A stretch of DNA of 64,000 nucleotides. Origin: Raja brachyura (Eukaryota). Position numbers and translations under genes: made by a program. Below are positions 3,028 through 56,616 of the stretch, piece after piece. Position 1 is the first letter of the stretch, and every line of letters starts with the position of its first letter. Under the pieces are notes generated by a model. The model saw only the letters and a list, made by a program, of their open reading frames with translations, was not told where the DNA came from and ran no database searches. The stretch covers positions 2,852,001 to 2,916,000 of the forward strand of contig OY740802.1 in assembly GCA_963514005.1 (NCBI GenBank). Reading direction: 5' to 3'.

Positions 3028-4910
3028 CAATTAACTACTTGGTTGAACACAACAGTGAATATCCACAGCAAAAAACATCATGCAAAGCAAGCCATGAATT
3101 AAATGAACTGAATCTGTTAAGAAGCTAATCTTGTAATAGGATTCATTAGCTATCAATGAGAATCTTCTCGGTCATACAACTGGACAGTTCACATTTCATT
3201 AATTTGCTCACCAAAATATATCTGCTAATATTTCAGTTTTTCCACATTTAAACCTAATTTAATGTTGGAGAACTGTAATCGCAAGCACTCCATAGGGCCG
3301 AAACATTCAGATCCAAGGCATAACATAATAAGCCACATAAAACTAATTTATATTTGTGTCACTCTATTCTAATTAAAAGACGGACATTTTTCAACAATAT
3401 TATATATTTTTATTTAAAAGTGGAAAAAAAAGACTTTTCGGCTCATTTGAAGATTTTGCTATCAAGGATTATCAGATTCAAAGCAACTGCTCAGGGAATC
3501 TCCTAATCTGTATACTGCCTCTTCAAAATATATCTCACTGACGAGTTACTGCCGAAGAGAAAACCAATCCCAACAGATCTGGATATATTTTCTGCTTTTG
3601 GACATCACTTGCAATGAAAGTTCTTAATTGTGAGATTATCCTCAATGCAAAACAAAAAATCAAAATACTGGTTTCAAGCCAAATTTATTTAAAAGATAAT
3701 GAGTTTGGGGGAAGCTGGGAAGTATTTATAGCATGAACACTTCAGTAATAAATATAAACACATTTAAAAGGGTTCTAAGGCTTTGGTTAAAAAATGTTAA
3801 ATTAATAGCCTAGATGTACTGGCTCAGATTGGAAATTTTGCTCAAGAATGTTACTCACTGTGGTACTAACCCATTTAGAAATATGAAATCACTTGCCACA
3901 ACTTTTCCCCAGCATTTCTTGCGCCAGAGAATATCATATTTTGAAATGACAACATTTCTACCACTCCAGTGCCATTTTGAGGCCAGGTGTCATTAATTGG
4001 AAGCTAATTAGTTCAATCCAGTGTTTTTTGAAAAGTAATTGAAAATATAACAAAGTTGCAAAGGTGATAACATTAATATTCCTTTCATTGCAAATTATGC
4101 CATCTGACTGTGGATTATATTCACAACTAATTGGATGAAACTTAAATATTTTACTTGAAGTAAAATATAGGCACCCGTTTTTATGGAACAAGTTGGAACA
4201 GATTATATTTTTGACAAAGTGACCTTAAAATGATTAAAGTTAATGTGCAAAATTTTGCAAAGTATTTTAAATGTCTACCACAAATTGTCAATTATAAACA
4301 CGGGCATTAATTTCGTATTCACATAAATGTAACCATCTGGAAGGATTCTGACAGAATCTACACAAAAATCTCAATTTTAAACTGGGCTGACAAAAGGTTT
4401 GGTTTAAATATTCCTGGTTATCCCTATAAAGCCACATCCCAAAGAGATGACGGATAAAATACTTGCAGATCTTTATAATATTGAACATCTGCCTGCAATG
4501 GATAAAGAAAAATGACATTTCCAGGAGGAAATACATCATCTAACCATACTATTGGCCATTTTGTTTACATAAATTGCCTTTTATTTCCACCATCCTGCCT
4601 CCCTTTTTCCATAATAGGAAATTTCTGATTTAAATTTTGCTTGCACTTGCAATAAAAACAATCAAAACCAAGTGGTGTCAAGAGAGTGCCTGGAATGTCT
4701 AGATTGATGGCTCAGAGCATATTAGATTGCTCAGTTTTTAAAAGGCATCAAAATTAAACAGCTATACGTCTCAGAAAGACTGCTCATCATTCATTGTATT
4801 TACGAAATTCACACGCCAAGTTAACTATACTATAAAGCGCTCTCCTTCCCGATACAAGCATCTGCAATAAACTGATAAAACCTGATCAATAAACAAGCAC
4901 AAACAGTTAA

Positions 4911-5115
4911 AGAATGAACTGCAGATGCTGGAGAATCGAGGGTTACACAAAAAGCTGGAGAAACTCAGCGGGTGCAGCAGCATCTAAGGAGTGAAGGAGA
5001 TAGGCGACGTTTCGGGTCGAGACCCTTCTTCAGACGTCTCGACCCGAAACGTCGCCTATCTCCTTCGCTCCTTAGATGCTGCTGCACCCGCTGAGTTTCT
5101 CCAGCTTTTTGTGTA
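4911..5115. mobile_element. Fold-back PLE terminal-repeat insertion with hammerhead motif
   Basis: Two inverted arms. Flanked by the 16-bp direct repeat aagcacaaacagttaa (4895-4910, 5116-5131). Confidence 0.85.
5006..5033 (-). ncRNA. Minimal hammerhead ribozyme motif (PLE type)
   Basis: Minus strand CTGAAGA A GGGTC TC GACCC GAAA C GTC gives both core boxes, a 5-bp stem II, palindromic ACGT stem III and a GUC site. Stem I is weak. Confidence 0.7.
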
Positions 5116-5531
5116 AAGCACAAACAGTTAATCTTACGAGACATGAAGACCCAAACTTCAAAACACTGTGTACAGTTATACCCAGTGGCCAAATTTAAAT
5201 TCTGGTTTTCACATCATCTAAACCTCTCCAAATCATGAGATCTGTGCAGAAATGTAATTAACCAGTTCTGACCTGTACAATAAAGTACAACTAGGAATCG
5301 AACTTTTGCAATAGTAATACATTGTTCTGCTCAGAGTCTGAAACCACATGGAACTTTAATAACCTGACCATTCTCAACAAACACAAAATATGACATTTAG
5401 AAATCTTAACTCCACTGTTGATGGTCTTCATGGAGAAAGCAACCAACCTCTGACATTGCTTCTGCAACATTATTCTCTTCCAATATCACCACTATGACAG
5501 GGACAAGTTAGTATGCTAACTTAGAGTCTGT

Positions 5532-53244: not shown

Positions 53245-53720
53245 TCAAGATTCAAGAAAGTTTATTGTCATGTGTCCCAGATAGGACAATGAAATTCTTG
53301 CTTTGCTTCAGCATAACAGAATATAGAAGCCCTGAATACAGAACAGATCAGTGTGTCCATATACCATTGTATGAATATATACACACATGAATAAAGAAAA
53401 CAGATAAAGTGCAAATAAACCGATAATGGGCTATTAATGTTCAGAGTTTTGTTTGAGTTGAGTTCAATAGCCTGATGGCTGTGGGGAATAGCTATTTCTG
53501 AACCTGGTCGTTGCTGTCTTCAGGCTCCTGTACCTTCTACCTGAAGGTAGCGGGGAGATGAGTGTGTGGCCAGGATGGTGTGGGTCCTTGATGATGCTGC
53601 CAGCCTTTTTGAGGCAGCGACTGCGATAGATCCCCTCGATGGTAGGGAGGTCAGAGCCGATGATGGACTGGGCAGTGTTTACCACTTTTTGTAGTATTTT
53701 CCGCTCTGCTCTGCCCAATT
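53245..53720 (-). mobile_element. Rex1-like LINE 3' fragment
   Basis: ERKILQKVVNTAQSIIGSDLPTIEGIYRSRCLKKAGSIIKDPHHPGHTL..LPSGRRYRSL. Confidence 0.85.
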
Positions 53721-56193
53721 GTATGGGTTAAAGGAAGTTTTATGTTTATTGCTTATGTTTAGGCAAAAATTTGAACTGAATCTTGGATCATAACTTCCCT
53801 CAAGATATCTGAGCAATGTTTGCCTACAATGTACCCGAATTAACCTTAAAATGTAAACTCGGTTGTGACAAAAACAGCACATATCAATTATCATGATTTA
53901 GTTAAGTTAGTGAGCTTCTTTCATTTTAATTTGACCATATTTGGAATTTCATATTGATGAAGTCACCCTGTGTCTCGGTTCCTGCATTGTGAACACCACC
54001 ATCGTAAGTGGAACTCTGGGCTTTCTTGTCATTCCCACTGTACCTATTCGATCAACTGACTCCACAACGTGCTGGAGGAACTCAGTGGGTCGGGCAGCAT
54101 CTGTGGAGGGAATGGACAGACAACGTTTTGAGTTGGTACCCTCCCCCATAGTTTCCTTTTCTGCCCTCCCCAAGTCTCCGAAGCCAAGCTGCTGCCTGAC
54201 CCACTTGCCCCATTGCCTTCTCCAAGGTCATCTCATCAATGGGACCCAGCTTCCTTGACCCAGCGGCCGCCAAATTACTAACCACTCAGTTTGCTGAACT
54301 GGCATAGTGTTAGCTCACATTACCAACCGCTTTTTCTTCTCAGATGCCATCTTATCTCATTCAAAACACCTTCCGCAGGGGGTTGCTAGGTTCACTGTCA
54401 AACACAAACAATAGACTCTACATAGCAACGTGGATTAAGTGAGCTCTGTGAGCTAACTGTAATAATGTAGCTCAAATCCGTTCACACACACAAGTATGTT
54501 TACAAACCGTCATCTTATATTTCTATTGTAAAATACAAATTTATACACTGTTATTAATCCCATCATTATTTTTTCTGAGAAACCTCAATGGGAATTGAAT
54601 GTTTCTATTGGTTTGTCCTTTCATTATTTTCTGCTTAACTGAAATAATTTGTAACCTTGAGCAGTTCCCTGAAGAAGTAATTTGTTAAATTGTTAATCCA
54701 AGAGAAATGGCGATAATTTGTCATGGATTACTGCTTTTCATGTCTTGAGAGTTTCTCAACGCAATAAGTAATCAGTTAAGCACTGTTGAAATGTAACTTA
54801 CTCAATAAGTACATCAATAGAACACACAACCCCGTTGAGATAACGGGGAGATAACCTATTTACGACATTCAGGAATATAAATCTAGGACTCTCGACTTCC
54901 CTCTTCAAACAGTATCAGTGAATCTTTTAGATCCCCAAACAAAATAACAAAGTACTGCAGTAACTCAACGGGTCAGGCAGCATCTCTGGAGAACATTTCA
55001 AATTAAGACTCTTCTTCAGGCTGATTGTAGTGGATGGGTCCCAACCCGAAACGTTGCCTATCCACGTCCTCCAGCGATGCTGCCTGACCTCGATGTGTTA
55101 TTTCAGCACTTTGTGTTTTATGCAGGATTCCAGCATTTGCAGTTCCTTGTGTCTCCAAACAGAAGATAGACACAAAAGGCTGGAGTAACTCAGCGGCTCA
55201 GGCAGCATTTCTGGAGAAAAGAAAAAGGTGGCGTTTCGGGTCAAGACCCTTCTTCAGACACAGAATTGGTTTAACATCTTAATATTCATTGCATATTGCT
55301 TAATAGTTTTGCTTCACAGACCCAATCCAAATGAAGACCCAATCCTCCAACGTGAATCAGTTTCTGCTGGGAGTGAGAACTTTAATGAGTTTGACAGAAT
55401 GTGAGTTGATGTTCTAGGAAGGAACTGCAAATGCTGGTTTAAACCAAAGATAGACACAAAATGCTGGAGTAACAGGCAGCATCTCTGGAGGGAAGGAATG
55501 GCTGACGTTTCGGGTCAAGACCCTTCTTCAGTGAGTTGAGATGGATGGATGCAAAGCATGGAGGAACTCTCCTGGTTTGTCATTCGCACTTGAGAAAACA
55601 CAAGGTTTTGGAGGGATCACAACAGGCAGTTTTAGAAAATATGTGGGCATGTCCACCAATGAAATATTACCAGATTCTTGCTTCGAATATTAATGTCTCC
55701 TGGGTTATTAATGCAAATCACATCCTCAATATATACATTAAAAGCCCACATGTTTAAACAATTACATGTAATGCTGTAAGATTTATGAAGTAAATGCAGT
55801 CTGTTTAGAAAACCAGCACAGAACTTGTCACATCTGATCATTTATCCCACAATGACCCCACCTGCCAACACGTGGATTTTTTTTTCCTAAAACTCTCAGG
55901 TCTTTCTTCTAAACCTTTCCTATCCATGTACCTGTCCCAATGTATTATAAATATATAGTCCTTGCCTTAACTACCCCCTCTGGCAGCTCCTTCCATAAAC
56001 CCCCCCCGGGTGAAAAGTTATCCCTCGGGTTTGATTAAATCTTGTTCCTTCCACAATGCACATATAGCCTCTTGCTGTCGATTTCCCTACCCTAGGCAAA
56101 ACAAGAGTGATTTCCACAGGTTATACGTGGTAAAACTGTCTACACTGGTTATTCCGGATCTCTTTAGAACGGATCTCAGTGTGAGCGGACTAA

Positions 56194-56616
56194 AGGGCCT
56201 GTCCCACTTGAAGATTTTTTTCGGCGACTGCCGGCATCATTGACTGACGTTTAAGAAGGAACTGCAGATGTTGGAAAATCGAAGGTAGACAAAAGTGCTG
56301 GATAAACTCAGCGGGTGAGGCAGCATCTATGGAGCGAAGGAAATAGGCAACGTTTCGGCCTGAAACGTTGCCTATTTCCTTCGCTCCATAGATGCTGCCT
56401 CACCCGCTGAGTTTCTCCAGCATTTTTGTCCACCTTCATTGACTGACGTATCAGGCCACTGAACATTTGTAGCGTGACAACGTATGACGAGCGGTGTTTT
56501 TTCAAGTGTCGCAACATTTTTTTGTCGCCGCTGGATTTTGAAATGTTCAAAGTCTTTCGGGACACTGATATGACGCTGGCAGTCGCCGAAAAAAATCGGC
56601 AAGTGGGACAGGCCCT
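56194..56616. mobile_element. Harbinger-type MITE containing a nested fold-back PLE insertion (56251-56435)
   Basis: TIRs agggcctgtcccacttg / caagtgggacaggccct, flanked by TAA/TAG. Inner 14-bp TSD tcattgactgacgt (56237-56250, 56436-56449). Confidence 0.9.

What the first reader, a model, noticed from the sequence alone, without database searches (positions are those of the whole stretch)
4895..56449. Stand-alone ~170-205 bp fold-back insertions with 14-16 bp TSDs: a hairpin-only mobile form
Seen: inserts at 4911-5115, 19464-19655, 30194-30361, 43495-43687 and 56251-56435 have no coding sequence, consist of two inverted arms and are bounded by long direct repeats (16, 15, 14, 14 and 14 bp). 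They are asymmetric in the same way. One arm carries an extra ~35-nt tail (ttcgattttccagcatctgcagttccttcttaaac), the other starts at nearly the same point (ggtagacaaaa / gggtacacaaaa), and the fold-back junction falls in or next to the hammerhead motif. Known: PLEs often insert with an inverted terminal repeat and a 30-40 nt tail. Inference: either these are a retrozyme-like non-autonomous RNA family, or reverse transcription turns around at the ribozyme, so the junctions record the integration mechanism.
Basis: partly seen in the sequence, partly recalled or inferred. Interest (0 to 1): 0.75.

Follow-up and report, generated by a model that had tools for sequence, protein, structure and literature searches.

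The report
Penelope retroelement double "strong-stop" insertions
The five hairpin-shaped inserts are real, but they are not a separate mobile family: each is two back-to-back copies of the ~100-130-base front end of a Penelope-like jumping gene, likely laid down when both cut DNA strands were copied off the capped start of one RNA, which would expose a step of this class's poorly known copying cycle.

Summary
Observation confirmed: five fold-back inserts with 14-16 bp TSDs. The arms are the pseudo-LTR of a Neptune-type Penelope-like element (PLE); an intact 1,192-aa RT + GIY-YIG copy lies in this genome. In 1.46 Mb of this genome (13 stretches), 117 fold-backs show one tail in 88, none in 27, two in 0. 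Junctions are nearly all different (36 of 38), so no hairpin master is spreading. Arms do not turn at the ribozyme cut: 0 of 64 young arms end there, 32 of 64 end 27-33 nt upstream. That point matches an initiator motif and often carries an extra untemplated G. Seven of 13 loci show this short head joined, through A-run + G, to another copy's broken 3' end. Best reading: reverse transcription starts inside the 5' pseudo-LTR and runs off the capped RNA start (strong-stop-like cDNA); a fold-back is two such cDNAs, one per nicked strand, joined at local palindromes. The architecture is published (Arkhipova 2013, Craig 2021, Frangieh 2024), and this scan noted it in six earlier findings on other genomes. 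I did not find the cap-G and jump evidence in print. No RNA data were available.

The parts
4911..5115 (.). Fold-back insert, young family C; tailed arm on the left (+100 to -29), tail-less arm on the right (-17 to +63); 16-bp TSD at 4895-4910 and 5116-5131
   Evidence: contigs of organisms B and C begin to match only at 5116, about 1,890 nt into the contig, a hint of an empty site
19464..19655 (.). Fold-back insert, family A; junction in hammerhead stem II (-19/-12); 15-bp TSD
   Evidence: contigs of runs X3 and X13 also begin inside its tail, so it looks shared with relatives
24695..24867 (.).
30194..30361 (.). Fold-back insert, older family B; short left arm; 14-bp TSD with one mismatch
43495..43687 (.). 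Fold-back insert, family C variant; tail-less arm to -28, tailed arm from +20, short filler that holds a piece of the head; 14-bp TSD
56251..56435 (.). Fold-back insert, family A variant; junction at the stem II palindrome (-8/-7); 14-bp TSD; nested in a MITE
56193..56617 (.). Host MITE (48-nt inverted ends) whose other copies give the empty target site
   Evidence: 5 of 5 fetched paralogues hold the 14-mer once
13149..13246 (+). Single-arm head, -30 to +66, preceded by an untemplated G; no TSD found
22932..23515 (+). 5'-truncated family C copy: end of GIY-YIG, 3' UTR, hammerhead motif, tail-less end; 12-bp TSD
40605..41265 (+). 5'-truncated family A copy: linker zinc finger, GIY-YIG, 3' UTR, hammerhead motif and tail; links the arms to the parent PLE

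Best explanation
The inserts are two head-to-head copies of the front end (pseudo-LTR) of a Neptune-type Penelope-like retrotransposon, likely made anew at each insertion when both nicked target strands prime reverse transcription near the 5' end of one RNA and both cDNAs run off its likely capped start. Steps. (1) Shown: the arms are the parent's pseudo-LTR, which stands both before the ORF and after the 3' UTR. (2) Inferred: the transcript starts about 30 nt upstream of the hammerhead GUC, at an initiator-like CCAGTCT, and is capped. (3) Inferred from TSDs and from Frangieh 2024: the GIY-YIG nicks both strands about 14 bp apart, leaving two 3' ends. (4) Inferred: one end primes at the distal internal site (+100, tail), the other at the proximal site (+66, no tail), on the same RNA or source, which gives exactly one tail. 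(5) Inferred: each cDNA ends after 95-135 nt, like retroviral strong-stop DNA; the cap is copied as an extra G. (6) Inferred: if neither cDNA jumps on, their ends are trimmed and joined where the head is self-complementary (CAG-T-CTG at -28, stem II at -14) or with short fillers, giving a 100-290 bp fold-back. If only one strand is copied, a single head results; if the cDNA jumps to an RNA 3' end, partial tandems and longer copies result. The hairpins are by-products, not a unit that copies itself.
For: Parent: intact 1,192-aa ORF in L238 with RT motifs, C-x4-C-x2-C linker and GIY-YIG; ATG about 40 nt after the tail; 3,965-bp tandem units. One-tail rule: 58 one-tail, 4 no-tail, 0 two-tail, 1 unclear of 63 young fold-backs; P about 2e-7 if ends were chosen independently. 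Same template: arms agree at 633 of 731 diagnostic site comparisons (87%; shuffles 57%, max 66%) and share 11 rare variants against 1.5 expected. 5' ends: 32 of 64 family C arms at -33 to -27, 0 at the GUC, 5 beyond -100. Extra G: 8 of 8 non-templated bases before the -30 end in the sample are G, each with an unrelated flank; genome-wide 54 G, 35 A, 11 T among the first 100 of 4,464 matches, background G share 0.29. Jumps: 7 of 13 fetched loci with the 5' part are head + broken ORF + A-run + G + head starting at -31 to -25; two more in L252 and L257. L245 has two G-preceded -30 ends round a 147-nt spacer. Either arm can be the longer one: 10, 18, equal 10. In vitro, an anole PLE nicks and extends both strands, starts at two sites a tail apart, and uses uncleaved RNA (PMC11167929).
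Against: No RNA data: the start site and cap are read from DNA scars only. The pile-up is weaker in older family A (11 of 55 arms at -33 to -27, 4 at the GUC, 12 downstream). A is also common before the -30 end (35 of 100) and is unexplained. An RT can add an untemplated base at any template end, so the G marks a run-off end more surely than a cap. Shared arm variants could come from gene conversion inside the hairpin. The 13 loci in the jump count were picked for holding the 5' part, so 7 of 13 is no rate. Only 38 of 88 one-tail units had a scorable TSD. The 27 no-tail units are mostly older and may be alignment failures. The sample is tilted to repeat-rich chromosome ends.
Confidence: 0.68

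Rival explanations
1. Ordinary 5' truncation: cDNA starts in the 3' pseudo-LTR of a long RNA and stalls at the folded hammerhead region; an inverted truncated copy is added by twin priming.
For: Long 5'-truncated copies exist (5 of 64 family C arms, 8 of 55 family A arms extend beyond -100); the arrangement is the textbook one (PMC8557442).
Against: A stall does not explain the extra G, heads joined by A-run + G to broken ORF ends, or copies carrying the 5' ORF that begin at the same -31 to -25 point.
Confidence: 0.12
2. Snap-back or self-priming: one cDNA (or an antisense RNA, as proposed in PMC3846280) folds at a palindrome and copies itself; the tail is cut off one end by the endonuclease.
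For: Junctions recur at palindromes: 1,237 loci with the CAG-W-CTG centre and 388 with one stem II centre; arms share variants.
Against: The tail-less arm is the longer one in 18 of 38 cases, which a copy of the tailed arm cannot be; some units have fillers or a spacer between two complete ends; single arms end at both +66 and +100. Later deletions could blur the first point.
Confidence: 0.11
3. A self-propagating hairpin family (retrozyme-like or MITE-like) that is copied as a unit by the PLE machinery.
For: Two junctions recur hundreds of times; 14 of the 30 best matches to the 56251 insert share its exact junction.
Against: That enrichment is query bias: the variant is 3 of the first 50 genome-wide, and 31 of 50 are the undecayed form. 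Both centre polarities occur relative to the tail (18 and 8 of 26; L244, L246 against L249). 36 of 38 junctions differ. Many units lack a whole hammerhead core, and none is a head-to-tail tandem.
Confidence: 0.04
4. Longer inverted insertions collapsed after insertion by deletion of the palindrome centre.
For: Long fold-backs exist (L033, arms of at least 693 bp); some junctions lie downstream of the GUC.
Against: Single arms, which cannot collapse this way, have the same -30 ends and TSDs (22 of 42 with TSD, against 4 of 300 controls); the extra G is not in the parent.
Confidence: 0.05

Closest known systems
Insertion unit of EN+ Penelope-like elements: pseudo-LTR, adjacent inverted pseudo-LTR, 30-40 bp tail on one end, TSD (PMC3846280; PMC8557442; PMC2377424)
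   Same: Head-to-head inverted pseudo-LTRs, one tail of about 35 nt, TSD, palindromes and overlaps at the inverted junction, hammerhead motif in the pseudo-LTR.
   Different: Here the unit is reduced to the two pseudo-LTR heads and is very abundant; TSDs are 10-18 bp (23 of 38 are 14-16) against 8-10 bp in the rotifer paper; inner ends pile up at a point with an extra G. The 2013 paper reads the palindromes as self-priming on an antisense template.
Poseidon of the green anole in vitro (PMC11167929)
   Same: Both strands nicked and extended; two internal start sites a tail apart; uncleaved RNA is the template; AT-rich targets (TSDs 66% AT against 55%).
   Different: The parent here has the Neptune-type linker and its ATG lies after the tail, not in the hammerhead. 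In the parts I read, that paper does not describe fold-backs, a one-tail rule, a cap G or jumps, and leaves the later steps open.
Retroviral and LTR-element minus-strand strong-stop DNA (recalled)
   Same: Priming near the 5' end of the RNA, a short run-off cDNA, and a jump to an RNA 3' end needed to copy the body.
   Different: The primer is nicked target DNA, not tRNA; the jumps seen are end-to-end with A-runs; no integrase and no true LTR. A likeness of working, not membership.
L1 twin priming (recalled) and the L1 5' untemplated G (PMC9341517)
   Same: Both target strands prime; an extra G is read as a copied cap.
   Different: L1 inversions copy two different parts of the RNA; here both arms copy the same part, giving a hairpin.
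Metazoan non-LTR retrozymes (PMC7229834; bioRxiv 10.64898/2026.07.22.740005)
   Same: Short, non-coding, derived from PLE pseudo-LTRs, type I hammerhead motif, long TSDs.
   Different: Retrozymes are head-to-tail tandems with a hammerhead in each unit that yield circular RNA; these are inverted pairs with unique junctions, often cutting through the motif.

Membership tests
EN+ Penelope-like element (parent) | Single ORF with RT followed by GIY-YIG endonuclease | tested here: met
   L238 4374-7952, 1,192 aa; Pfam RVT_1 E 2e-4 and GIY-YIG E 0.0017, both below Pfam's cut-offs; DKG and YIDD motifs
EN+ Penelope-like element (parent) | Pseudo-LTRs from tandem or partial tandem arrangement | tested here: met
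   3,965-bp tandem units on C18; partial tandems in L233, L234, L236
EN+ Penelope-like element (parent) | 30-40 bp tail at one end of inverted units | tested here: met
   88 one-tail and 0 two-tail of 117 fold-backs
EN+ Penelope-like element (parent) | Minimal hammerhead motif in the pseudo-LTR | tested here: inconclusive
   CUGANGA, stem II and GAAAC-GUC present by pattern; no Rfam hit; stem I only about 2 bp; the lowest-energy fold is not a hammerhead; cleavage not testable
Neptune clade | CX2-5CxxC linker between RT and EN (as defined in PMC8557442; shared with Nematis) | tested here: met
   C-x4-C-x2-C before the GIY-YIG
Neptune clade | Placement in an RT tree with reference clades | not tested
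   No reference sequences held; hence 'Neptune-type'
Non-LTR retrozyme | Head-to-tail tandem units, each with a complete hammerhead | tested here: not met
   Units are head-to-head pairs (117, against 12 and 34 same-strand pairs); junctions often cut the motif
Non-LTR retrozyme | Unit-length linear and circular RNAs | not testable with these tools
   No RNA holder listed
Self-copying non-autonomous family (MITE- or SINE-like) | Copies share one internal structure inherited from a master | tested here: not met
   36 of 38 junctions distinct; both polarities at recurrent centres

The most novel reading that the evidence does not exclude
Neptune-type PLEs replicate like a target-primed retrovirus: the RT starts inside the 5' pseudo-LTR of a capped RNA, makes a 95-135 nt strong-stop cDNA on each nicked strand from one RNA, and must jump from the cap to an RNA 3' end to copy the body. 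Pseudo-LTRs, partial tandems, inverted ends and the one-tail rule all follow from this one cycle, and the fold-backs are its arrested intermediate, preserved in thousands of copies beside an intact autonomous gene.
Probability: 0.5. Interest if true: 0.68.

Novelty: new member of a known kind. Interest (0 to 1): 0.42.

Why it matters
The shape is a known PLE insertion scar, so the finding as framed (a new hairpin-only mobile form) falls. What remains is a large natural record of a cycle that the literature calls unresolved (PMC8557442; PMC11167929). The strict one-tail rule, the run-off ends 30 nt upstream of the ribozyme cut, the extra G and the A-run jumps give testable predictions on where the RNA starts, how many RNAs one complex uses and how pseudo-LTRs arise. 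A natural intact ORF in the same genome allows a direct in vitro test. The data also argue that the hammerhead's cut does not set the ends of integrated copies.

Tried and rejected
Selenocysteine or read-through in the parent: many RT hits showed one in-frame TGA, but this came from copies sharing the query's frameshift; rejected. Two-ORF parent: the C18 tandem has two overlapping frames, but L238 has one ORF; the split is a mutation. Master hairpin at the 56251-type junction: query bias. Rfam: no match. Fold of the head RNA pairs the 5' end with the tail end, but z = -0.48; not used. A 66-nt DNA search found nothing because common words are skipped. No RNA holder listed, so expression was not examined. 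Contigs laid on the window were swamped by repeats; the left side of the possible empty site at 4911 was not among the pieces shown, so that site is a hint only. No genome-wide count of two-tail units was obtained; the one-tail rule rests on the 1.46 Mb sample. No AATAAA-like signal within 45 nt before any of the 7 jump points. A search of the anole paper's three held supplements for 'inverted', 'tail' and 'insertion' found nothing.
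Full report
Observation. The window is G000:C22:2852001-2916000 of a 2.70-Gb genome. The five inserts are at the stated places, with TSDs of 16, 15, 14 (one mismatch), 14 and 14 bp and arms 83-99% complementary. A sixth young fold-back lies at 24695-24867. Positions below are relative to the last base of the hammerhead GUC (0).

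What the arms are. One arm matches 51 places in the window. Two run on upstream into coding sequence: 40605-41265 and 22932-23515, with a C-x4-C-x2-C linker and a GIY-YIG domain (weak Pfam hits). Following the element through the genome gave a tandem array of 3,965-bp units on C18 and one copy, L238, with an intact 1,192-aa ORF (RVT_1 and GIY-YIG hits below Pfam's cut-offs). The arm sequence stands before the ATG and again after the 3' UTR: it is the pseudo-LTR. A 36-nt piece of the youngest family's arm (family C, my label) has 34,227 exact matches.

Census. I took 14 blocks of 100 kb, chosen by coordinate and tilted to chromosome ends, plus the window: 1,464,000 bases in 13 stretches. They hold 742 arms; neighbouring arms are head-to-head 117 times, against 34, 12 and 12 for the other orientations. 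Of 63 young fold-backs, 35 reach a TSD score of 10 or more; 0 of 150 swapped-flank controls do. Of all 117, 88 have one tail, 27 none, 2 are unclear and 0 have two; of the young 63, 58, 4, 1 and 0. Independent choice of ends would give about 14 two-tail units among 62 (P about 2e-7). Of the 88 one-tail units, 38 have a scorable TSD: 10-18 bp in 37 (one 24-bp call is doubtful), 14-16 bp in 23; inserts are 101-502 bp. Five of 5 fetched paralogues of the MITE that hosts the 56251 insert hold the 14-mer once. Contigs of organisms B and C start to match at 5116, about 1,890 nt into the contig, while the own-organism contig starts inside the insert: a hint that 4911 is empty in relatives, with the left side not seen.

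No self-copying hairpin. Junction coordinate pairs differ in 36 of 38 cases, and many have short fillers. Three or more subfamilies make the same shape. Two centres recur: CAG-W-CTG at 1,237 loci and a stem II palindrome at 388 loci; both are self-complementary words of the parent head. Against my reading at first: 14 of the 30 best matches to the 56251 insert share its exact junction. Genome-wide that variant is 3 of the first 50 loci and the undecayed form 31 of 50 (counted by hand), so this was query bias plus CpG decay; both centre polarities occur relative to the tail. In family C, single arms outnumber fold-backs 42 to 11, and 22 of the 42 have TSDs (controls 4 of 300).

Both arms come from one template or source. 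In 74 fold-backs the arms agree at 633 of 731 comparisons at 13 diagnostic sites (shuffles: mean 57%, max 66%), fall in the same family in 48 of 50 classifiable pairs, and share 11 rare variants against 1.5 expected (max 6 in 500 shuffles). Gene conversion inside the hairpin is not excluded. The tailed arm is longer in 10, the tail-less arm in 18, equal in 10 (measured against a family A reference), which a simple snap-back of the tailed cDNA does not predict.

Where the arms end. Of 64 family C arms, 32 end at -33 to -27, 18 at -26 to -4, 0 at -3 to +3, 4 downstream, 5 at -99 to -34 and 5 beyond -100. Family A is less sharp: 11, 17, 4, 12, 3 and 8 of 55. Copies that carry the 5' ORF often begin at the same point. 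The sequence there, CCAGTCT, fits the initiator consensus YYANWYY (recalled) with A at -30. Among 18 family C heads in the sample that include -30, the base before is the templated C in 10 and G in 8, never A or T; the 8 have unrelated flanks. Genome-wide, 4,464 heads have a non-C base there; the first 100 are 54 G, 35 A, 11 T (counted by hand; background G share 0.29; P about 1e-8 when tested against 0.27). An untemplated 5' G is read as a copied cap in L1 (PMC9341517, passages). The A excess is unexplained.

Jump products. Of 13 fetched loci chosen for holding the 5' part, 6 are full-length or nearly so and 7 are head + 5' part of the ORF broken at a different point each time + 4-9 untemplated bases + a second head from -31 to -25 to the tail-less end. 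All 7 fillers are A-rich and end in G, as do those of L252 and L257. I infer that a cDNA started in the head, ran off the RNA's 5' end and jumped to the oligo(A) or A-extended 3' end of a short transcript. L245 has two G-preceded -30 ends round a 147-nt spacer inside one TSD: two complete run-off cDNAs.

Mechanism. Shown: identity of the arms, TSDs, one-tail rule, end positions, extra G, A-run joints, unique junctions. Inferred: capped start at -30, double nick about 14 bp apart, two primings on one RNA, end-joining at palindromes. The anole Poseidon protein nicks and extends both strands, starts at two internal sites a tail apart, and uses uncleaved RNA (PMC11167929; parts 1-2 of 4 read, supplements searched), which supplies the biochemistry. 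The hammerhead here is a motif only.

What is known. The inverted pseudo-LTR with one tail, a TSD and junction palindromes is described in PMC3846280, PMC8557442 and PMC2377424 (passages read); the last reports a transcript start and internal promoter in the pseudo-LTR of Drosophila Penelope. Retrozymes are tandem units (PMC7229834, passages; bioRxiv 10.64898/2026.07.22.740005, parts 1-3 of 5; its supplements were not seen). PMC6155905 (passages) confirms minimal hammerheads in PLEs. Searches for Penelope with 'strong-stop', 'twin priming', 'template jump' or 'transcription start' and 'capped' listed no paper whose title or abstract start describes this cycle; of these I opened only PMC2377424, PMC3846280 and PMC8557442. 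The library lacks most subscription papers, including several early PLE papers and the 2014 PLE hammerhead paper, which I did not see, so absence from print is not shown. This scan's notes list the same fold-backs in six earlier findings on other genomes, all judged a known kind, two noting that the fold lies beside the ribozyme rather than at its cut; a word search for the strong-stop reading found no note.

Verdict. Real, abundant and of a known architecture: minimal PLE insertions, not a new hairpin family. The added value is the evidence for a strong-stop-like step. Interest 0.42; novel case 0.5 likely, 0.68 if true.

Noticed in passing
L238:4374-7952 (G000:C2, about 62.64 Mb): Natural intact 1,192-aa PLE ORF with an apparent 11-bp TSD; many copies of its 5' part are 99-100% identical, so the family is very young.
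   Followed up: partly
L228-L230 (G000:C18:46.361-46.377 Mb): Four near-identical head-to-tail 3,965-bp full-length units sharing one frameshift, preceded by a partial unit.
   Followed up: partly
L245:286-664: Fold-back with a 147-nt unrelated spacer between two G-preceded heads; origin of the spacer not traced.
   Followed up: no
G000:C11 near 3,651,843 and G000:C34 near 3,583,891: Two fold-backs on different chromosomes share target sequence and an odd filler, one with a further deletion: probably one insertion carried along inside another repeat or duplication.
   Followed up: no
window 41782-43203 and 37035-37517 (- strand): Exons of a kinesin-2 motor gene (KIF3B-like; name recalled from the translation, no call); the 43495 insert lies about 290 bp from the large exon.
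   Followed up: no
window 28227-28557 and 56193-56617: MITE family with inverted ends beginning AAGGGCCTGTCCCACTT; 2,675 first-look candidates in the genome.
   Followed up: partly
window 56847-57288: Two LINE 3' ends (CR1-like; label recalled) in inverted arrangement.
   Followed up: no
window 59890-61400: A minus-strand PLE end joined to broken ORFs that look like a DNA transposase (60072-60653, 60936-61400).
   Followed up: no
window 49600-51300: C-rich low-complexity tandem repeat giving spurious proline-rich ORFs.
   Followed up: no
window 18700-18771: Short piece of the parent's 5' ORF joined to a tail-only end: a small rearranged insertion.
   Followed up: no
genome-wide: Besides G, A is over-represented before the -30 end (35 A against 11 T of 100); it may reflect A-runs at jumps or another subfamily.
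   Followed up: no
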